This document shows, piece by piece, positions 5,963-39,435 of a stretch of DNA of 64,000 bases (the stretch's first letter is position 1; each line of letters starts with the position of its first letter). The stretch is taken from the NCBI RefSeq assembly GCF_009914755.1, contig NC_060925.1; one strand, given 5' to 3'. The translations under genes were made by a program, and so were the position numbers. This DNA comes from the human T2T-CHM13v2.0 reference genome, Homo sapiens. The notes below the pieces were generated by a model. The model made no database searches and was not told the origin of the DNA. It worked only from the letters and a program-made list of their open reading frames with translations.

Positions 5963-9931
<3,969 letters not shown>

Positions 9932-11590
9932 GGATCTTAACCAAAGAAGTAAATAATCTTGGCAATAAAAACTATAAAACATTTATGCAAGACACTGAAC
10001 AAGACACCAAAAAATAGAAAATTATTCCCTGTTCATGGATTGGAAGAATTAATATAGCTAAAATGTCCATACTACCCAAAGCAATCTACAAATTGAATGC
10101 AATCCCTCTCAAAATACCAATGAAATTATTCACAGAAACATAAAAAAATTCCTAAATTCATATAGAATGATACAAGACCCAGAATAGCCAATAAGTGGTG
10201 CTGGGAAACATGGATATCCATATGGAAAAGAAGAAAATTAAACCCCTATCTCTCACCACATACAAAAATCAAATCAAAGTGGATTAAAGACTTAAATCTA
10301 CCTTAAACTATAAAACTACTACAAAACACATTGAGGAACCTCTCCAGGACATAGAACTGGGCAAAGGTTTCTTGAGTAACGCTCCGCAAGCACAGGCAAC
10401 CAAAGTAAACATGGCCCAATGAAATCCCATCATGTTAAAAAAAAAAGAAACTTATGCACAGTATAGGAAACAATCAAGTGAAGAGACAACCCATAGAATG
10501 GCAGAAAATATTTGCAAACTATGCATCTGACAAGGAATTAATAAACAGAATATATAAAGAGCTCAAACAACTATATAGGAAAATATCTAATAATCTGATA
10601 TAAAAATGGGTAAAGATCTGAATATACATCTCTCAAAAGAAGACATACAAATGGCAAATGGGTATAAAAAGGTGCTCAACATTATTGATCATCAGAGAAA
10701 TGCAAATCAAAACTGCAATGAGATATCATATTATTACATTTAAAATGGCTTTTCCAAGAGTCAGGCAATAACAAATGCAAGTGAGGATGTGGAAGAAAGA
10801 GATCCCTCATACACTGTTTGTGGGAATGTAAATTAGTACAACCACTGAGAAAAAACGGTTTGGAAGTTCTTCAGAAACTACAGATAGAGCTATGTTATGA
10901 TCCAGCAATCCCTCTCCTAGGTATATATTCAAAAGTTGGGAAATCAACATACTGAAGAGATATCTGAACTCCCATGTTTATTTCAGCACTATTGTCAATA
11001 GGCAATATTTGGGAGCAACCTAAGCATCCATCAACAGAAAAATGGATAAAGAAAATGTGGTACATATACACAATGGAGTACTATTCAGCCGTAAAAAAAG
11101 AATGAGATCTTTTCATTTGTAACAACATGGATGTAACTGGAGATCATTATGTTAAGTGAAATTAGCCAGCCACAGAAAGACAAAATTCACATGTTCTCCC
11201 TTATTTGTGGGATCTGAAAATTTAAACAATTGAACTCATGGAGACAGAGAGTAGAAGGATGATTATCAGAGGCTGGAAAGGGCAGGGCGGTACAGGGATG
11301 GGGTGGGGTTGATTGGTACAAATAATTAGAAAGAATAAATAAGGCCTACTATTTGATAGCATAACAGAGTGACTATAGTCAATAATAATTTAATTGTACA
11401 TTTAAAGATAACAAAAAGAGTATAATGGGATAGTTAGTAACACAAAGGATAAAAGCTTGAGGGGATAAATATCTCATTCTTCATGATGTGATTGTTACAC
11501 ATTGCAGGCCAGTATCAAAACATCTCATTTAATTCATAAATATATATATACACTATGTACCCACAAAAGTTAAAAACTTTTAAAAATCTT
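9932..11590 (+). mobile_element. L1MA-type LINE-1, 3' part (continuation of 3466..5961), L1MA2/3-like 3'UTR
   Basis: ORF2 C-terminal homology; 3'UTR tttgatagcataacagagtgactatagtcaataataatttaattgtac...tatgtacccacaaaagttaaaaa. Confidence 0.92.
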
Positions 11591-13914: not shown

Positions 13915-14530
13915 GCTAACATTTACAGTATACTTCCAATATACCTGATATTGTGCTAAATGTTCTACAGGCACTATCTTATTTTATCCTCATGACAACT
14001 ATATGAGGTAGGTGTCTGAGAAGTTTTGCTCTGTGTCCCCACCCAAATCTCACTTTGAATTGTAATTCTCATAATCCCCACATGTCAAGAACAGGAACAG
14101 GTGGAGGTAATTGAATCATGGGGGCAGTTTCCCCCATGCTGTTCTCCTCAGACAGACAAGACAAGCTAGTGAGTGAGTTCTCAGGAGATTTGGTGGTTTT
14201 ATATGTGTCTGGCATTTCCCCTGCTTGCTCTCACTCCGTCCTGCTGCCCTGTGAAGAAGGTACCTGCCTCTCCTTTGCCTTCCACCATGATTATGTTTCC
14301 TGAGGCCTCACCAGCAATGCAGAAACTGTGAGTCAATTAAACCTCTTCCCTTTATAAATTACCCAGTGTTGAGTATTTCTTCATGGCAGTGTGAGAATGA
14401 ACTAATACAGTGCCATTATCATCTTATTTTAAAAATGAAAAACCTATGGTCTAGAAAAGTAACTGTTTCAGTGGCATCAGGCAGCTAGTAAACTGTACAG
14501 ACAGGGTTTGAACCCTGATATTCTGAGTAC
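13915..14530 (-). mobile_element. MIR split by the THE1D-like LTR
   Basis: ttatcctcatgacaactatatgaggtagg | attatcatcttattttaaaaatgaaaaacc...cagctagtaaac...gggtttgaaccc. Confidence 0.7.
14017..14409 (+). mobile_element. MaLR solo LTR (THE1D/MSTA-like)
   Basis: TG...CA ends, ctctgtgtccccacccaaatctc, gagtcaattaaacctc, aactaataca; TSD gtgtc/gtgcc. Confidence 0.93.
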
Positions 14531-19472: not shown

Positions 19473-20136
19473 AAGAGCAGATAACCTTTACTGAGCACTG
19501 TATTAGTCTGTTCTCATGCTGCTAATAAAGACATACCCAAGACTGGGTAATTGATAAAGGAAAGAGGTTTAAATGACTCACAATTGAGCATGACTGGGTA
19601 GGCCTCAGGAAACTCACAATCATGGTGGAAGGGGAAGCAAACATGTCCTTCTTCACATGGCAGCAGCAAGAAGAAGTGCCAAGCAAAAGAGAAAAAGCCC
19701 CTTATAACACCATCCGATCTCATGAGAACTCACTATTAGGAGAACAGCATGGAGGTAACTGTCCCCATGATTAAATTGCCTCCCACTGGGTCCTTCCCAT
19801 GACACATGGGGATTATGGAAACTACAATTCAGGATGAGATTTGGGTGGGGACACAGGCAAACAATATCAAGCACTTACTAAGTATCAGGCTTTATACTAA
19901 GCACTTTGTATATGTTAATGCTTACTACAATTCCTTGAAATAGTTATTATAATACTTAGAATATGGAGCCAGGGTTCTGTCAGAAACAAGAGCAGATAAT
20001 TTTTATTGAGCACTTACTAAGCAACAGGCTTTATACTAAAAACTAAAAACTTTATATACATTAATGTTCACTGCAATTCTTTGAAGTAGTTATTATTACA
20101 ATATTTATAATGTATAGCCAGGATTCTGCCAGAAAG
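19473..20136 (+). repeat. Local tandem duplication of a ~145-bp MIR-like unit (first copy carries the THE1 LTR)
   Basis: aagagcagataa...tgagcac[LTR]ttactaag...caggctttatactaa...agccagggttctgtcagaaa repeated at 19988-20136. Confidence 0.9.
19499..19869 (-). mobile_element. THE1 solo LTR (THE1C-like)
   Basis: tgtattagtctgttctcatgctgctaataaagacatacccaagactggg...gagatttgggtggggacacag...atatca; perfect TSD agcac (19494-19498; 19870-19874). Confidence 0.95.
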
Positions 20137-28117: not shown

Positions 28118-28789
28118 CTGCCAATAACAGTCTTTTGTGATCCTCTGCATTTCTGTGGTATCAGTGGTAATGTCTTTTCTTTCATTTATAATTTTATTTG
28201 AGTCTTCTCCCTTTTTTTCTTAGTCTACCTGAAGATTTGTCCATTTTTATTTATCTTTTCAAAAAACCAACTCAGTTTCATTGATTTATTATTTTTTCTA
28301 GTCTGTGTTTCACTTATTTATATTTTTATCTTTATTATTTCCTTCCTTTTCTAGTTCCTTGAGGTGTAATATTAGGTGTTTATTTGAGATTTTTCTTATT
28401 TTTTAATGTAGAATTTTATTACTATAAACTTCTCTCAGAACTGCTTTTGCTACATTCCCATAAATTTTGATATGTTGAGTTTTCATTTTTATTTGTCTCA
28501 AGATATAGTTTAATGTCTCTTTTAATTTCTTTATTGAATCATTGCTTGTTAAGCAGCATATTGTTTATTTTCCATGTATTTGTCAATTTTCCAAAATTTC
28601 TCCTGTTATTGACATCCAGTTTCATACCATTGTGGTCAGAAAAGATACTTGACATAATTTCAATCTTCTTAAATTTGTTAAGACTTGTTTTGTAACCTCA
28701 CATATTATATATCCTGAAGAATATTTTGTGTCATTTTGAGAAGAATATGTGTTCTGCTGCTGTTGGGTGGGATGTTCTCTTTACATCTG

Positions 28790-29078
28790 TGTAATGGTTA
28801 ATATTAGCTGTCAACTTGATTGGATTGAAGGAAGCAAAGTTTCTAGTTGTGTCTGTGAGGGTGTTGGCCTTTGGCCACAGACTGGAGGCTGCACTGTTGG
28901 CTTTCCTACTTTTGAGGTTTTGGGACTTGGACTGGCTTCCTTTCTCCTCAGCTTGCAGAGAGTCTATTGTGGTAGTTCACATTGTGATTGTGTGAGTCAG
29001 TACTCCTTAATAAACTCCTCTTCATATATTCATCTATCCTATTAGTTCTGCCCTTCTAGAGAACCCTCACAAATACAG
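28790..29078 (+). mobile_element. ERV-L LTR (MLT2A-type, MLT2A2-like), internally deleted
   Basis: tgtaatggttaatatt..tgtcaacttgattggattgaagg start; ggccacagactggaggctgcactg; end ctattagttctgcccttctagagaaccctcacaaataca; short for MLT2A, with a jump at gtgttggcc|ttggccac. Confidence 0.9.
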
Positions 29079-30662
29079 ATTTTGCTACCAGAAGTGGGGT
29101 GCTGCTGTAAAGATATCTGAAAATGTGGAAGTGATTTTGGAACTCAAAAACAGGCAGAAGTTGAAAGAGTTTGGAGGGCTCAGAAGACAAAAAATTGGGG
29201 GAAATTTTGAAACTTCCTAGAGACTTGGAGGGCTAAGAAGAAAAAATGATGTGGAAAAGTTTGGAACTTCCTAGAGAATTGTTGAATGGTTTTAATGAAA
29301 ATGCTGATAGAAATATGGACAATGAAGTCCAGACTGATGTGGATTCAGGTGGAGATGAGGAAGTAATTGGGAAGAGGAATAAAGGTGACTCTTGCTATGC
29401 TTTAGTAAAGAGACTGATGGTATTTTACCCCTGCCCTAGAGAATCTGTGGAACTTTGAACTTAGGAGAGATGATTTAGGATATCTGGTGGAAGAAATTTC
29501 TAAGCAGCAAAGCACTCAAGAGGTGACAGAGCATAAAAATTTGGAAAATTTGCAGCCTGACAATGCTATTGAAAATAAAAACCATTTTCTGGAGTGAAAT
29601 TCAAGCTGGCTGCAGAAATTTGCATGAGTAATGATGAGCCAAATATTAATCAGCAAGACAATGGGAAAAATGCTTCCAGGGCATGTCACAGACCTTCCTG
29701 AGGGCCCCTACCATCACAGACCCAGGGGCCAAGGAGGGAAAAAATGGTGTCTTGGGCTGGTTCCAGGGCCCCTTTGCTGTGTGCAGCCTTGGGACTTGGT
29801 GCCCTGTGTCCCAGCCACTCCAGCCATGGCTAAAGGAGGCCAAGGTACAGTCCAGGCTGTATCTTCAGAGGGTACAAGCCCCCAGCCTTAGTAACTTCCA
29901 TGTGGTGTTTTTCCTGTGGGTCCACAGAATACAAGAACTGAGGTTTGGGAACCTTCACCTAGATTTCAGAGGATGTATGCAAACACCTGGATGTCCAGGC
30001 AAAGGTGTGCTTCAGGGGCAGAGCCCTCATGAAGAACTACTGCTAGGGCAGTGCAGAAGGGAAATATGGGGTTGGAGCCCCCACACAGAGTCCTCAATGG
30101 GGCACTGCCTAGTGGAACTGTGAGAAGGTGGCCACTGTCCTCTGGACCCCACAATGGTAGATCCATTGACAGCTTGCTCTGTGCACCTGGAAAAGCCACA
30201 GGTACTCAACACCAGTCTGTGAAAGCAGCCAGGATGGATGCTGTACCCTGCAAAGCCACAGGGGCAGAGCTGCCCAAAGCTGTGGGAGCCCACCTCTTGA
30301 ATCAGGTGACCTGGATGTGAGACATGGAGTCAAAGAAGATCATTTTGGAGCTTTAAGGTTTACTTACTGCCCTATTGTATTTTGGACTTGCATGGGGCCT
30401 ATGGCCCTTTTGTTTAGGCCAATTTCTCTCATTTGGAGTGGGTATATTTACCTAATGCCTGTACCCCCATTGTACTTAGGAAGTACCTAATTTGCTTTTG
30501 GTGGCTCATAATTGGAAGGGACTTACCTTGTCTCAGATGAGACTTTGGACTTGGACTTTTGGTTTAATGCTGGAATGCATGAAGACTTTGGTAGACTGTT
30601 GGAAAGGCATGATTGTGTTTTGAAACATGAGGACATGAGATTTGGGAAGGGCTGGGACAAAA
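29079..30662 (+). mobile_element. MaLR internal region (THE1D/MST-int-like)
   Basis: gtggggtgctgctgtaaagata..gaaaatgtggaag, ttggagggctcagaag, ggagcccccacacagagtcc, gtctcagatgagactttggac, PPT gagatttgggaaggg; ~1.6 kb. Confidence 0.93.
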
Positions 30663-31039
30663 TGATATGATTTGTCTGTGTCCCCACTCAAAGTCTCATT
30701 ACAAATGAATTGTAATTCTCATAATCCCCACAAATCAAGGGTGGGACAAGGTGGAGATAATTGAATTATGGGGGCGGTTTCCCCCATGCTGTTCTGGTGA
30801 TAGTGAGTGTGTCTCATGAGAGCTGATAGTTTTATAATCATTGGCATCTCTCCTGCTTGCACTCACTTCGTCCTTTCACCCTATGTAGAAGGAGCCTTCT
30901 TCTTCGCCTTCTGCCATGATTGTAAGTTTTCTGAGGCCTCCCCAGTAATGCAGAACTGTGAGTCAATTAAACCTCTTTCCTTTCTAAATTACCCAGTCTC
31001 AGAGGTATTTCTCCACAGCAGTGTGAGAATGGACTAATA
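30663..31039 (+). mobile_element. MaLR 3' LTR (THE1D-like)
   Basis: tgatatgatttgtctgtgtcccc...gagtcaattaaacctc...gagaatggactaata; same type as 14017 LTR; terminal CA missing. Confidence 0.93.
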
Positions 31040-32808
31040 GTCTGTTACACACATTTGATCTTAAGTATAGTTTTATTCCAATGTTTTCATATTAATTTTT
31101 TCTCTGGATGATGATTTGTCCACTGCTGAAAGTGTGATCAATTTATATCTCCCTTCAGATCTAGTAATATTTGCTATATTTATTTAGATGCTCCAATTTT
31201 GGGGTGCATATATATTTACAATTGTTATATTCACTTGATGAGTTTACCCCTCTCTCATTACATAATGTCTTCTTTGTCTATTTTTATAGTTTTGAACTTA
31301 AAGTCTATTTTATATGATTAAAAATACAGCTACCCTTACTCTCTTTTGGTTTCCATTTGCATGGCATATCTTTTTTCATCCCTTCACTTTCAGTGTATCT
31401 GTGTCCTTAATGTGAGGTGAATCTCTTATAGGCAGAATATACTTGGGTCTTGCTTTCATTTATCTATTCCAGCATGCTATGGCTTTTGATTGGAGAATCT
31501 AATCCATTTACATTCAAGGTAATTATTGATAGGTAAGGACTTACTACCACCATTTTTGTTGTTTTATTATTATTATTTTTTAGATCCTTTGTTTCTTTAT
31601 TTCTCTCTTACTGTCTTCCCTGTGATTAAATGATTTTCTGTAGTGGTATGCTTTGATTCTTTGCTTTTTTATCTTTTGTGTACCTACTATAGGTTTTTGC
31701 TTTCTGGTTACTATGAGGCTTACATAAAATGTTATACAGTAATAACAGGCTATTTTAGGCTGATAATTTAACTCTAGTCACATGAAATAACTACACTTTC
31801 ACTCCAACTCCCATTTTATGTTTTTGATTTCACACTTTACATCTTTTTATAATATATATCCCTTAAAAAGTATTGTAGCTATTGTTTTTACTAGTTTTGT
31901 CTTTTAACCTTAATCCTAAAGATATAAGTGACTTAGAAACCACTATTACAGTATTTTAGTATTCTGAATTTGATTGTGAAGTTACTTTAACCAGTGAGTT
32001 TTATATTCTCATATGTTTTTGTGTCACTAATTAGTGTCTTTTTTTTTTCAACTTTAAGAACTCCCTTTAGCATTTCTTACAAGTCTGGTGACAGTGAACT
32101 CCCTCAGCTGTTGTTTGTCTAGGAAAGTGTTTATCTCTCTTTCATTTCTGAAGGATAGCTTTGTCAGGTTCATTAGTTTTAGCTGTCAGGTTTTTTTGTC
32201 CTTCAGACCTTTGAATATATCATCCTACTCTTTTCTGGTATGTAGAGTTTCTGCCTCTAGCATTACTGGAACTCCCTTCCCTGGAACTCTCTTCCATGTG
32301 ATTTGCTTCTTTTCTCTTGCTGTTTTCAGGATTCTCTTTTGTCTTTGATTTTTCACAGTCTGATTTAATATGTCTTGATGTAGTCTTGTTTGGATTGAGT
32401 CTGCTTGTAGACTTTTTTCTTTTCTGTATCTGGATATATATACATCTTTCCCTGGATTTGGAATATTTTCTGTTATTATTTCTTTAAATAAGCTTTCTAT
32501 CCTTTAGTCTCTCTCTTCTTAATTCCTATACCATGTACATTTGCTCTGTTGAAGCTGTTCTATAATTCCCGTAAACTTTCCTTTTTCTTTTTTCTCCTCT
32601 ATATATTTTCAAATAATCTGTCTTCAGGTTTACAGATTCTTCTAATTGATCATTTCTGGTGTTGATACTCTCTATTGCATTTTTCATTTCACTCATTGTA
32701 TTTTTCAATTGATCCTCATTTCCTTATCTAAAAATTGGGATAATATTGTATCTCTCTCAGGGAAACAATAAGAAAAAGCTGATTTAGTGTATGTGTAACA
32801 TCTATTAG

Positions 32809-33573
32809 AGGGGTCAGCGAACTTTTTGTATAAAGGGCTATATAGCACATATTTTAAGCTTTCTGGGCTAGGCAGCAAACCAAGGATGTTATTTAGGTAC
32901 TGATATAACAAGAAAGAAAAAAATTTTACAAAAATTTTTCACAAAATCTTTTACACAAATTTTTATTAGAAAAATGTAACATATAATAATAGCAAATTAA
33001 CTTTTGTTTTTGTTAATACATGTTGATATGGTTTGGCTATGTCCCCACCTGAGCCTCATCTTGAATTGTAGCTCTTGTAATTCCCACATGTTGTGGGAGG
33101 GACCCAGTGGGCGGTACTTGAATCATGGGGGTGGGTCTTTCTTGTGCTGTTCTCATGATAGTGAATCAGTCTCATGAGATCTGTTGGTTTTATAAAGGGG
33201 AGTTCCCCTGAATATGCTCTTTTTGCCTACCAGTATGTAAGACATGACTTTACTCCTCCTTTGCCTTCTGCCATGATTCTGAGGCATCCACAGCCATGTG
33301 GAACTGAGTCAATTAAACCTCTTTTCTTTATAAATTACCCAGTCTTGGGTATGTCTTTATTACCTGTGTAAGAGTGGACTAATACACATTTCTAGTAATT
33401 AAAAGAATGGAATATGGTGGGAAATAATAGTTTACTTAATTGGGGAATCAAAGTCAATGTTGCCTATCAGCAAATTGGTTGCAAAGCCCATCTATAAAAA
33501 CATTTTTATTCACAGGCCATACAAAAACAGATAAGCTGGGCTGGACCTGAGGGCTATAGTGTGCCAATCTCTG
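32809..33573 (-). mobile_element. hAT-Charlie MER58/Cheshire-like element split by THE1B
   Basis: Ends aggggtcagcgaactttttgtataaagggc and ctatagtgtgccaatctctg resemble MER58 TIRs. Confidence 0.65.
33024..33386 (+). mobile_element. THE1B-like solo LTR
   Basis: tgatatggtttggctatgtcccc...ataaaggggagttcccctg...ggactaataca; TSD catgt/cattt. Confidence 0.93.
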
Positions 33574-39076: not shown

Positions 39077-39435
39077 TGAACTGTAATCCCTAATGTTGGA
39101 GGTGGGGCCTGGTAGGAGATATTTGGATCATGGGGGCAGATCCTTCATGGCTTGGTGCTCTTCTCACAATAGTGAGTAAATTCTTACAAGATCTTGTTAA
39201 GTTTGTGGCATTTCCTGCCACCCCCCCTCTTTCCTACTTCACCATGTGACATACCTGCTCCCTCTTTGCCTTCTGCCGTGATTGGAAGCCTCCTGACACC
39301 CTCTCCAAACCCAGAAGCAGATACCATGATGCTTCTTGTACAGCCTGCAGAACCATGAGCCAATTAAACCCCTTTGCTTATTAATTACCCAGTCTCATGC
39401 ATTTCTTTATAGCAATGCACAAACAGACTAACACA
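39077..39435 (+). mobile_element. MSTB-like MaLR LTR, 5' end missing
   Basis: tgtaatccctaatgttggaggtggggcctgg..cagcctgcagaaccatgagccaattaaacc..cagactaacaca. Confidence 0.88.

What the first reader, a model, noticed from the sequence alone, without database searches (positions are those of the whole stretch)
28785..31044. Chimeric provirus: ERV-L (MLT2A) 5' LTR joined at the PBS to a MaLR (THE1D-type) body and 3' LTR, within one TSD
Seen: the 5' LTR (28790-29078) is MLT2A-type and shares no body sequence with the 3' LTR (30663-31039), which is THE1D-type. The switch falls in the primer-binding region: aataca|gattttgctaccag (ERV-L-like) runs into aagtggggtgctgctgtaaagata (MaLR-int). The flanks atctg (28785-28789) and gtctg (31040-31044) form a 4/5 TSD, and the host L1 reads through collinearly, so this looks like one integration. 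Established: reverse transcription normally makes the LTRs identical; MaLRs lack pol and are thought to depend on ERV-L-type enzymes; plus-strand strong-stop DNA (LTR+PBS) transfers by PBS complementarity. Inference: intermolecular plus-strand transfer from an ERV-L genome onto a co-packaged THE1 minus strand gives exactly this layout. It would be a fossil of the helper/parasite relationship between the two families. Post-integration gene conversion is the alternative. I cannot tell whether such chimeras are already catalogued.
Basis: partly seen in the sequence, partly recalled or inferred. Interest (0 to 1): 0.85.

Follow-up and report, generated by a model that had tools for sequence, protein, structure and literature searches.

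The report
Old provirus with two unlike ends
A roughly 50-million-year-old retrovirus remnant in an AGBL4 intron has the front end of one virus family and the body and back end of another; at least seven more copies of this hybrid layout elsewhere in the genome suggest that the two families were once copied together.

Summary
Window 28790-31039 is one 2.25-kb LTR element whose two LTRs do not align with each other. It sits in an antisense old L1, between 5-base flanks that match at 4 of 5 positions. The flanks abut in an uninterrupted L1 copy of the same window.

The layout is not unique. Of the 39 other best places for the 5' LTR plus junction, 8 continue from the same LTR type into the same internal sequence. 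Six of these have the full layout, one is a short version with both ends, and one has only the front. Flank duplications of at least 4 of 5 bases occur in 5 of 8 loci.

The hybrids are not one clade. In each of the three segments they are mostly nearest to ordinary copies. The switch maps to the ~18-base primer-binding site shared by both families.

My best reading is repeated pre-integration recombination. Plus-strand strong-stop DNA of a pol-bearing ERV-L-type element landed on a MaLR minus strand. The products were dead ends.

The remnant is old (about 30-60 My), has no recognisable genes and no envelope. The family names MLT2A and THE1 are recalled, not tested. I found no report of this layout in the papers I could search.

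The parts
28785..28789 (.). Left copy of the 5-base target-site duplication (host L1 sequence)
   Evidence: Matches 31040-31044 at 4 of 5 positions. The pentamer occurs once at the matching place of a second L1 copy in the window.
28790..31039 (+). The whole element: a 2.25-kb LTR element with unlike LTRs
   Evidence: Six other loci match it end to end at 74-80% identity.
28790..29077 (+). 5' LTR of the ERV-L type (the name MLT2A is recalled). It carries an internal deletion of about 255 bases after base 28865.
   Evidence: It is 86-91% identical to 31 LTR-only places. The same LTR type flanks a ~7-kb provirus, L026, whose open frames hit RVT_1 and RT_RNaseH_2. The deletion is measured against 12 of 12 kin.
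29078..29100 (+). Short spacer plus primer-binding site. This stretch is shared by both families and contains the switch.
   Evidence: Matched at 14-19 of 23 bases in 3 ERV-L-type loci, 17-20 of 23 in 8 hybrids, and 17-19 of 23 in 9 ordinary MaLR proviruses. Spacer diagnostics place the hybrids with the ERV-L type.
29101..30662 (+). Internal region of the MaLR type, with no recognisable gene. It holds a 54-base tandem duplication at 29171-29278.
   Evidence: It is 77-82% identical to 39 other places. 0 of 5 open frames hit Pfam at E <= 0.01. The duplication is family D1.
30663..31039 (+). 3' LTR of the MaLR type (the name THE1 is recalled). It lacks the last two bases seen in kin.
   Evidence: It matches three solo LTRs in the window at 70-78% and the LTRs of ordinary proviruses L017-L025. 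The termini were compared.
31040..31044 (.). Right copy of the target-site duplication (host L1 sequence)
28542..28789 (-). Host L1, left flank: antisense ORF2, end of the endonuclease region. It extends further left.
   Evidence: The piece 28542-28697 matches L1 ORF2 protein residues 209-258. The frame runs unbroken in register to the junction, with stops.
31040..31553 (-). Host L1, right flank: antisense ORF2, start of the endonuclease region. It extends further right.
   Evidence: The piece 31467-31553 matches L1 ORF2 protein residues 6-27. Bases 31052-31138 align to the second L1 copy at 9804-9885.

Best explanation
The element is a dead-end recombinant made before integration, about 30-60 million years ago. 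A particle of a pol-bearing ERV-L-type retrovirus-like element also held RNA of a gene-less MaLR element that uses the same primer-binding site. Both RNAs were copied into minus-strand DNA. The plus-strand strong-stop DNA of the ERV-L-type copy (whole LTR, spacer and primer-binding site) then annealed through that site to the MaLR minus strand instead of to its own. Completing both strands gave a DNA with an ERV-L-type 5' LTR, a MaLR body and a MaLR 3' LTR. It was integrated once, with a 5-base duplication, into an old L1 in what is now an AGBL4 intron. The same accident happened many times with different MaLR variants.

Shown: the layout, the single integration, the recurrence, the absence of a hybrid clade, and a switch confined to the shared primer-binding site.

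Inferred: joint packaging and the strand-transfer step.
For: 1. **The LTRs are unlike**.
2. **There was one integration.** The flanks match at 4 of 5 bases and abut in an uninterrupted L1 copy, and the L1 frame is kept.
3. **The layout recurs.** 8 of the 39 other places scored cross the same junction. Six are full-length with a MaLR-type 3' LTR, one is short with both ends, and one has the front only. They lie on seven chromosomes and have different flanks.
4. **Flank duplications recur.** They reach at least 4 of 5 bases in 5 of 8 loci, one of them 5 of 5.
5. **The hybrids are not a clade.** None of the 39 best relatives of the body plus 3' LTR is a hybrid locus. All 9 fetched relatives have MaLR-type sequence at the 5' end and 0 of 9 have the ERV-L type. 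The nearest neighbour is an ordinary copy for 7 of 7 hybrids in the 3' LTR, 5 of 7 in the body and 6 of 9 in the 5' LTR. Mean hybrid-to-hybrid distance is not below hybrid-to-ordinary distance.
6. **The switch is in the shared site.** ERV-L-type homology ends at 29096-29101. MaLR homology starts at 29069-29093. The spacer before the primer-binding site is of the ERV-L type in 8 of 9 hybrids at each of two diagnostics, as expected if the strong-stop DNA brought it along.
7. **The donor LTR type belongs to a pol-bearing element**, while the body has no recognisable gene.
8. **Published background fits.** The two families are said to overlap in time in early simian primates (passages of PMC11359688). 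Second strand transfer is said to be mostly but not always intramolecular (abstract of PMC5651808).
Against: - No step of reverse transcription can be observed in a fossil.
- The own-branch divergence of the 5' LTR block (JC 0.06-0.08) is lower than that of the body (0.11) and the 3' LTR (0.14) in the window, and this order recurs in the other hybrids. It may reflect how the kin were picked, the short block length (212 bases) or base composition. Taken at face value, it would suit a younger 5' LTR.
- Flank duplications were not found in 2 of 8 loci and are ambiguous in 1.
- Only 3 ERV-L-type loci define the spacer diagnostics.
- Only 40 of 5782 and 40 of 17263 candidates were scored.
- The window's 3' LTR lacks its last two bases, so its duplication is not clean.
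Confidence: 0.6

Rival explanations
1. Recombination before integration at the DNA level. Two finished or nearly finished linear DNAs, one ERV-L-type and one MaLR, recombined through the short shared stretch (LTR tip plus primer-binding site) in the same particle or cell, and the product was then integrated.
For: It gives the same layout, the same single flank duplication, the same recurrence and the same breakpoint interval as the best explanation.
Against: It needs homologous recombination on about 20-30 shared bases between free DNAs. The canonical replication scheme already has an annealing step at exactly this site. It does not by itself predict that only the 5' LTR is swapped. All 7 hybrids with a determinable back end have the MaLR-type 3' LTR, although the query could only find front junctions.
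Confidence: 0.15
2. A distinct family. One hybrid master arose once and was copied many times by some unusual route, so that all copies inherit the unlike LTRs.
For: Nine loci have a uniform layout. Two pairs of hybrids are each other's nearest neighbours in one segment: L013/L027 in the 5' LTR, and WIN/L011 and L028/L011 in the body.
Against: LTR replication makes both LTRs alike from one RNA, so such a master could not breed true (established knowledge). Hybrids are mostly nearest to ordinary copies in all three segments, and mean hybrid-to-hybrid distances are not smaller. Their 3' LTRs fall into different LTR subgroups next to ordinary proviruses. None of the 39 best relatives of the window's body plus 3' LTR is a hybrid.
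Confidence: 0.1
3. A change after integration. An ordinary MaLR provirus had its 5' LTR replaced by gene conversion from, or unequal recombination with, a genomic ERV-L LTR.
For: Gene conversion among human LTRs is reported (PMC4921805, search listing only). The lower divergence of the 5' LTR block would fit a later event.
Against: There is no homology on the host side of the 5' LTR to resolve a conversion tract. Recombination between two loci would destroy the flank duplication and the L1 continuity, yet both are kept here, and duplications are kept in 5 of 8 loci. The event would have to recur at nine places with the same junction.
Confidence: 0.05
4. Two separate insertions. An ERV-L solo LTR and a 5'-truncated MaLR element happen to lie next to each other.
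For: Nested and adjacent repeats are common. For example, L015 has an unrelated older MaLR-like copy right beside the hybrid.
Against: The LTR runs into the primer-binding site and body without a gap in 8 of 8 junction-crossing places. One duplication brackets the whole element. No L1 sequence lies between the parts, and none is lost.
Confidence: 0.02

Closest known systems
HERV-L / ERV-L proviruses with MLT2A-type LTRs
   Same: The 5' LTR is 86-91% identical to 31 LTR-only places. One pair of these brackets a ~7-kb provirus whose open frames hit reverse transcriptase and RNase H. The spacer and primer-binding stretch match, and the flank duplication is 5 bases.
   Different: After the primer-binding site the window element does not continue as that provirus does. 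Homology to L026, L029 and L030 stops at 29096-29101. It has no pol and a different 3' LTR. The names HERV-L and MLT2A are recalled. The pairing HERVL/MLT2A1-A2 is from passages of PMC5753468. No repeat library was available to test the name.
MaLR elements of the THE1/MST kind
   Same: The body and 3' LTR are 77-82% identical to 39 other places. The 9 fetched are proviruses of the same size with this LTR type at both ends, 8 fully and 1 partly within the flank held. The body has no recognisable gene. The primer-binding stretch is the same.
   Different: The 5' LTR belongs to the other family.
Recombinant ERV families such as HARLEQUIN, or the ERV1/ERV3 recombinants HERV18, HERVL32 and HERVL66
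   Same: They are mosaics of different ERV families, ascribed to recombination (passages of PMC5753468; mosaic forms in PMC4724089).
   Different: Those are families that bred true, with like LTRs and switches inside the body. Here the two LTRs differ, the switch is at the primer-binding site, and the copies look like independent dead ends.
Complex LTR retrotransposons made by template switching in Triticeae, and LTR swapping between autonomous and non-autonomous partners in soybean
   Same: Abnormal strand or template switching during reverse transcription joins two parent elements into one daughter that is then inserted (abstract of PMC1950507). The soybean work concerns a helper and its parasite.
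   Different: The Triticeae cases are large fusions of two elements that share an LTR, not a clean swap of the 5' LTR. I saw the soybean paper (Du et al. 2010) only as an entry in reference lists. It is not held, so I cannot say how close it is.
Intermolecular second (plus-strand) transfer in retroviruses and Ty elements
   Same: The step invoked here is the same. The abstract of PMC5651808 says that the second transfer is generally intramolecular but may be intermolecular in heterozygous particles with very divergent RNAs.
   Different: That evidence is from HIV-1 recombinants of one virus species. Here the partners would be an autonomous element and its gene-less dependant, and the products are fixed genomic fossils. 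Lauermann and Boeke 1997 on Ty was seen only in reference lists.

Membership tests
ERV-L (HERV-L, MLT2A-type LTR), for the 5' LTR | The LTR matches the curated MLT2A family model | not testable with these tools
   No Dfam or Repbase library is on hand. The name rests on recall of the consensus. The tools show only 86-91% identity to 31 genomic LTR copies.
ERV-L (HERV-L, MLT2A-type LTR), for the 5' LTR | The LTR type brackets a pol-bearing provirus | tested here: met
   A pair of matches on C12 lies 6.8 kb apart. Open frames of L026 hit RVT_1 (73 bits) and RT_RNaseH_2 (47.5 bits).
ERV-L (HERV-L, MLT2A-type LTR), for the 5' LTR | Class III pol with a dUTPase domain | tested here: inconclusive
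   The best solved relative of the RT piece is murine leukaemia virus RT (58 bits), with foamy virus RT at 30-36 bits. Named relatives are only generic reverse transcriptase entries.
ERV-L (HERV-L, MLT2A-type LTR), for the 5' LTR | Primer-binding site for tRNA-Leu | not testable with these tools
   That needs a tRNA sequence, which I may not type from memory, and none is in the held DNA. The assignment to tRNA-Leu is recalled.
MaLR (THE1/MST kind), for the body and 3' LTR | LTRs of about 370 bases bracket a body of about 1.6 kb without pol or env | tested here: met
   The body is 1585 bases and the 3' LTR 377 bases. 0 of 5 open frames hit Pfam at E <= 0.01. 9 of 9 fetched relatives have the same build.
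MaLR (THE1/MST kind), for the body and 3' LTR | Subfamily THE1D | not testable with these tools
   No repeat library is available. The nearest LTR found is a solo copy in the window at 77.5% identity.
Ordinary provirus | The two LTRs are copies of one sequence | tested here: not met
   There is no similarity between the LTRs.
Ordinary provirus | Single integration with a short target-site duplication | tested here: met
   The flanks match at 4 of 5 bases, abut in an L1 relative, and keep the L1 frame.
Product of intermolecular plus-strand strong-stop transfer | Only the 5' LTR is foreign, and the switch lies in the primer-binding site with the donor's spacer | tested here: met
   The homology limits are 29069-29093 and 29096-29101. 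The spacer diagnostics are of donor type in 8 of 9 hybrids each. The 3' LTR is MaLR-type in 7 of 7 determinable hybrids.
Product of intermolecular plus-strand strong-stop transfer | The reciprocal product exists (MaLR-type 5' LTR on an ERV-L body) | not tested

The most novel reading that the evidence does not exclude
These hybrids are a fossil record of ERV-L-type and MaLR genomes being packaged and reverse-transcribed in the same particles. That would be the first direct sequence evidence naming the helper of the most abundant LTR elements of the human genome. It would also give a natural measure of how often the second strand transfer goes between molecules.
Probability: 0.5. Interest if true: 0.8.

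Novelty: new variant of a known kind. Interest (0 to 1): 0.65.

Why it matters
[quoted passage not shown] Their dependence on ERV-L enzymes is an inference from sequence likeness.

A set of single-integration hybrids, whose only foreign part is the 5' LTR and whose switch is the shared primer-binding site, is what joint copying of the two genomes in one particle would leave behind. It would turn that assumption into something that can be counted in genomes. The counts could cover how often it happened, with which subfamilies, at what time, and whether the same holds in other mammals.

There is also a practical point for annotation. Such loci break the rule that a provirus has like LTRs, so LTR-divergence dating and provirus-finding tools will misread them.

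Tried and rejected
- **A unique event.** Rejected: 8 further loci share the junction.
- **The ERV-L body simply starts with MaLR-like sequence.** Rejected. Three LTR copies with their own body (L026, L029, L030) lose homology at 29096-29101, and L026 goes on to pol.
- **A family with ERV-L-type LTRs at both ends around a MaLR body.** Not seen: 0 of 7 determinable hybrids.
- **L1 continuity through solved L1 ORF2 protein.** This worked only in part. Pieces of 52 and 29 residues anchored both flanks. Three shorter pieces next to the junction found no L1. One of these gave only chance matches to an unrelated surface protein.
- **L1 relatives of the flanks in the fetched loci.** None found. BLAST of the right flank against the window found nothing. 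A protein-level look then led to the second L1 copy used. In one search the short left-flank control against a trimmed reference was not significant (score 16, reached by 309 of 500 shuffles). The left-flank result therefore rests.
- **Naming the class of the donor.** Solved structures and named proteins gave no ERV-L name.
- **Dating by LTR-LTR divergence.** Not applicable, because the LTRs are unrelated. I used own-branch distances from pairwise comparisons instead. These are biased by how the kin were chosen.
- **Literature.** Nine answered searches found no description of this layout. The library lacks most subscription journals. Smit 1993 and Cordonnier 1995 were not seen (recalled only). 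Two papers were not held. The additional files of PMC4724089, which list mosaic chains including class III and MaLR, are closed and may bear on whether such loci were already tabulated.

Full report
**What is there.** Window 28790-31039 is a 2.25-kb LTR element on the + strand. It lies in an intron of AGBL4 and within the span of the lncRNA LOC107984954, and it touches no exon (annotation given with the task).

Its parts are these:
- a stretch of about 23 bases holding a short spacer and the primer-binding site (29078-29100);
- a 1.56-kb internal region (29101-30662);
- a 377-base 3' LTR (30663-31039).

The two LTRs are unrelated at the sequence level. BLAST of the 5' LTR against the whole window finds only itself. 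The 3' LTR finds three other solo LTRs (14017-14407, 19501-19869 on the minus strand, and 33024-33384, at 77.5, 74.4 and 69.9% identity) and two small fragments, but not the 5' LTR. A forced alignment gives 96 identical columns of 452.

**One integration.** The five bases on either side match at 4 of 5 positions.

- *Both flanks are one antisense L1.* A 52-residue open piece of the left flank matches human L1 ORF2 protein residues 209-258 (E 1e-5). A 29-residue piece of the right flank matches residues 6-27 (E 0.0035). Three shorter pieces nearer the junction found no L1.
- *The L1 frame is kept.* On the minus strand the frame runs from the right flank into the left flank in register if exactly one copy of the five bases is counted.
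- *The flanks abut in another L1.* A second, uninterrupted L1 copy in the same window (about 9500-10050) gives a DNA-level test. The left flank aligns without gaps up to its last base (28737-28789 to 9748-9800; score 52, reached by 0 of 200 shuffles). The right flank resumes at 9804 (31052-31138 to 9804-9885; score 39, reached by 4 of 500 shuffles). The pentamer occurs once at that place.

No host sequence is missing at the site. The two L1 copies differ there by four bases, and the second copy has a frameshift at that point.

Two blemishes remain. Compared with kin, the 3' LTR lacks its last two bases. The right flank is about 7-8 codons shorter than the human L1 protein somewhere more than 100 bases from the junction (my count).

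**The layout recurs.** A search of the whole reference used the 5' LTR plus the first 93 internal bases as query. It scored 40 of 5782 candidates. Apart from the window itself there were two kinds of place:

- 31 places match the LTR only (86-91% identity). Six of these run on for another 10-24 bases into the primer-binding stretch.
- 8 places run from the LTR straight into the same internal sequence.

All 8 continue in that sequence as far as the loci reach. I extended seven of them. [quoted passage not shown] L014 has only the front. The eighth, L003, needed no extension. It is a short copy with the same 5' LTR, part of the body and the end of the same 3' LTR type.

The nine loci lie on seven chromosomes and have different flanks. 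At the expected positions the flank pentamers match as follows:
- 5 of 5 in L027;
- 4 of 5 in the window, L011, L015 and L028;
- ambiguous in L012;
- absent in L013 and L003.

That is 5 of 8 loci with at least 4 of 5, where chance gives about 0.016-0.03 per locus. At the 3' end I allowed a shift of one or two bases, because indels near the LTR tip move the extrapolated boundary.

**Not one lineage.** A second search used the body plus 3' LTR and scored 40 of 17263 candidates. None of the 39 other places is a hybrid locus. All nine fetched (L017-L025) are ordinary proviruses with the MaLR-type LTR at the 5' end as well. Eight show it in full, and L023 shows only a 75-base piece within the flank held. 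None has the ERV-L-type LTR.

| Segment | Hybrids whose nearest neighbour is an ordinary copy | Mean JC distance: hybrid-hybrid / hybrid-ordinary / ordinary-ordinary |
|---|---|---|
| Body | 5 of 7 | 0.215 / 0.196 / 0.179 |
| 3' LTR | 7 of 7 | 0.282 / 0.288 / 0.261 |
| 5' LTR | 6 of 9 (only 4 of the 12 other sequences were non-hybrid) | 0.161 / 0.133 / 0.102 |

Pairwise distances in the body are star-like. In the 3' LTR the hybrids fall beside different ordinary proviruses. The hybrids therefore look like independent products drawn from the pools of both families.

These trees rest on short, old sequences. The ordinary copies were picked for likeness to the window, which should bias against, not for, this result for the other hybrids.

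**Where the switch is.**
- Ordinary MaLR proviruses become alignable to the window from 29069-29093 onward.
- Three ERV-L-type LTR copies with their own body (L026, L029, L030) stop being alignable at 29096-29101.
- The 23 bases after the LTR are matched at 14-19 of 23 in the ERV-L type, 17-20 in eight hybrids and 17-19 in nine ordinary MaLR copies.
- The last 20 bases of the LTR separate the classes (17-18, 14-18 and 7-14 of 20). So do the next 30 bases (0-16, 23-28 and 22-27 of 30).
- In the few bases between the LTR end and the primer-binding site, two features differ between the families. One is a base column. The other is an extra base present in 7 of 9 ordinary MaLR copies and 0 of 3 ERV-L-type copies. 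The hybrids, counting the window, go with the ERV-L type in 8 of 9 for each feature.

The switch therefore lies within the primer-binding site of about 18 bases.

**Family and age.**
- *Donor LTR.* This LTR type brackets a ~7-kb provirus on C12 (two matches 6.8 kb apart). The front 5 kb (L026) holds open pieces that hit RVT_1 (73 bits), RT_RNaseH_2 (47.5 bits) and DUF5535 (29 bits). These are 3 of the 8 pieces scanned. Its pol is in several pieces, and I did not count its stops and frameshifts.
- *Class not settled.* The tools did not settle the retroviral class. The best solved relative of the RT piece is murine leukaemia virus RT (58 bits), ahead of foamy virus RT (30-36 bits). Named relatives are generic. 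The names ERV-L and MLT2A for the 5' LTR, and THE1 for the 3' LTR, rest on my recall of the consensus sequences. The published pairings HERVL/MLT2A1-A2 and THE1_I/THE1A-D are from passages of PMC5753468.
- *Window element.* It has no recognisable viral gene. The longest open frame is 146 residues, and 0 of 5 open frames hit Pfam at E <= 0.01. There is no envelope.
- *Damage.* The 5' LTR lacks about 255 bases that 12 of 12 kin have. The body carries a 54-base tandem duplication that most kin lack (rows).
- *Divergence.* Own-branch Jukes-Cantor distances for the window copy are 0.06-0.08 for the 5' LTR block, 0.11 for the body and 0.14 for the 3' LTR. The 3' LTR figure is an upper bound because of poor sampling of its subgroup.
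- *Date.* With a recalled neutral rate of 2.2e-9 per site per year, these distances give about 30-60 million years, and about 50 from the body, which is the longest segment. This fits the published picture that MLT2A1/A2 entered simian ancestors about 65-45 million years ago and that THE1 is simian-specific (passages of PMC11359688).

The remnant is old, broken and without envelope, so nothing here calls for referral on grounds of youth or wholeness.

**Mechanism.** In the standard scheme both LTRs of a new DNA copy come from one minus strand. The plus-strand strong-stop DNA (LTR, spacer and a copy of the primer-binding site) anneals to the primer-binding site at the other end of that same minus strand. 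Unlike LTRs arise if that short DNA anneals to the primer-binding site of a second minus strand made in the same particle. The result is the donor's LTR and spacer at the 5' end, the recipient's body and 3' LTR, and a switch in the primer-binding site.

That is exactly the anatomy found here. It is found repeatedly, with single flank duplications and without a hybrid lineage. Such a product could not breed true, because its RNA would carry ends from two families. That fits the lack of a clade.

What is shown is the anatomy, the single integration, the recurrence and the breakpoint. Joint packaging and the transfer step are inferred.

Rivals:
- Recombination of two free DNAs before integration gives the same anatomy and is less specific.
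- A self-copying hybrid family runs against the trees and against the logic of LTR replication.
- Post-integration conversion or unequal recombination runs against the kept duplications, the L1 continuity and the lack of homology on the host side.
- Chance adjacency runs against gap-free junctions in 8 of 8 places.

One observation sits uneasily with the best reading. The 5' LTR block is consistently the least diverged segment of the hybrids. I cannot tell whether this is sampling bias, composition or a real difference.

**Known or new.**
- Recombinant ERV families and mosaic HERV chains are well known (passages of PMC5753468 and PMC4724089).
- Template switching that makes complex LTR elements is described in Triticeae (abstract of PMC1950507).
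- Intermolecular second strand transfer is discussed for HIV-1 (abstract of PMC5651808).
- A review of recombination during reverse transcription treats the first transfer and copy choice as the recombinogenic steps (passages of PMC6894440).

Nine answered searches found no description of ERV-L-type 5' LTRs on MaLR bodies. The library lacks most subscription journals, and supplements are closed. I therefore rate this as a new variant of a known kind, not as certainly unreported.

**Limits set by the caps.**
- Both genome searches and both cuts were used.
- The reciprocal arrangement, the true number of hybrids (only the 40 best candidates were scored in each search), the dUTPase of the donor provirus and L1 relatives from outside the window remain open.
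- Orthologues cannot be reached with these tools.

Noticed in passing
window 29171-29278: There is a 54-base tandem duplication (two copies, 81% alike) in the internal region. Most kin match this part as a single copy, because the rows break at query position 128-130.
   Followed up: partly
window 28865/28866: The 5' LTR lacks about 255 bases that are present in 12 of 12 kin LTRs (124-348 bases between the two blocks). This is presumably a deletion after integration.
   Followed up: yes
window about 9500-10050 (minus-sense L1): A second old L1 copy covers the same part of ORF2. It has a four-base difference and a frameshift right at the place that corresponds to the insertion site.
   Followed up: partly
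window 14017-14407, 19501-19869 (minus strand), 33024-33384, and fragments at 39263-39417: Three solo LTRs and two fragments of the same MaLR LTR type lie within 20 kb of the element. The one at 14017 is the nearest relative found for the window's 3' LTR.
   Followed up: partly
L015 1-2067 (G000 C7:31086800-31088866): An older MaLR-like copy (68-81% to the window's body) lies directly beside the hybrid, in the opposite orientation.
   Followed up: no
L012 about 2457-2760: About 300 extra bases interrupt the body of this hybrid, at the place matching window 30355/30356. I did not identify them.
   Followed up: no
L026, open piece between the LTR and the RT piece: One open piece hits Pfam DUF5535 (29 bits, cut-off 25). 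This is a family of unknown function that may be the gag-side part of this provirus type.
   Followed up: no
proteins P0004-P0007: Four hits to the RT piece (73-81% identity) are labelled Clostridium, Escherichia, Salmonella (marked as contaminant by its source) and Klebsiella. They sit on contigs of 292-1545 bases and look like mammalian, possibly human, contamination of bacterial assemblies. I left them alone.
   Followed up: no
L025 near 2318-2333 against window 31040-31055: The local alignment of this ordinary provirus runs 16 bases past the LTR end into the window's right flank. This is probably chance and was not examined.
   Followed up: no
L026 and L030, first 30 bases after the primer-binding site: Two of the three ERV-L-type bodies still match the MaLR-type leader at 14-16 of 30 bases. 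This may be a faint sign of the common descent of the two families.
   Followed up: no
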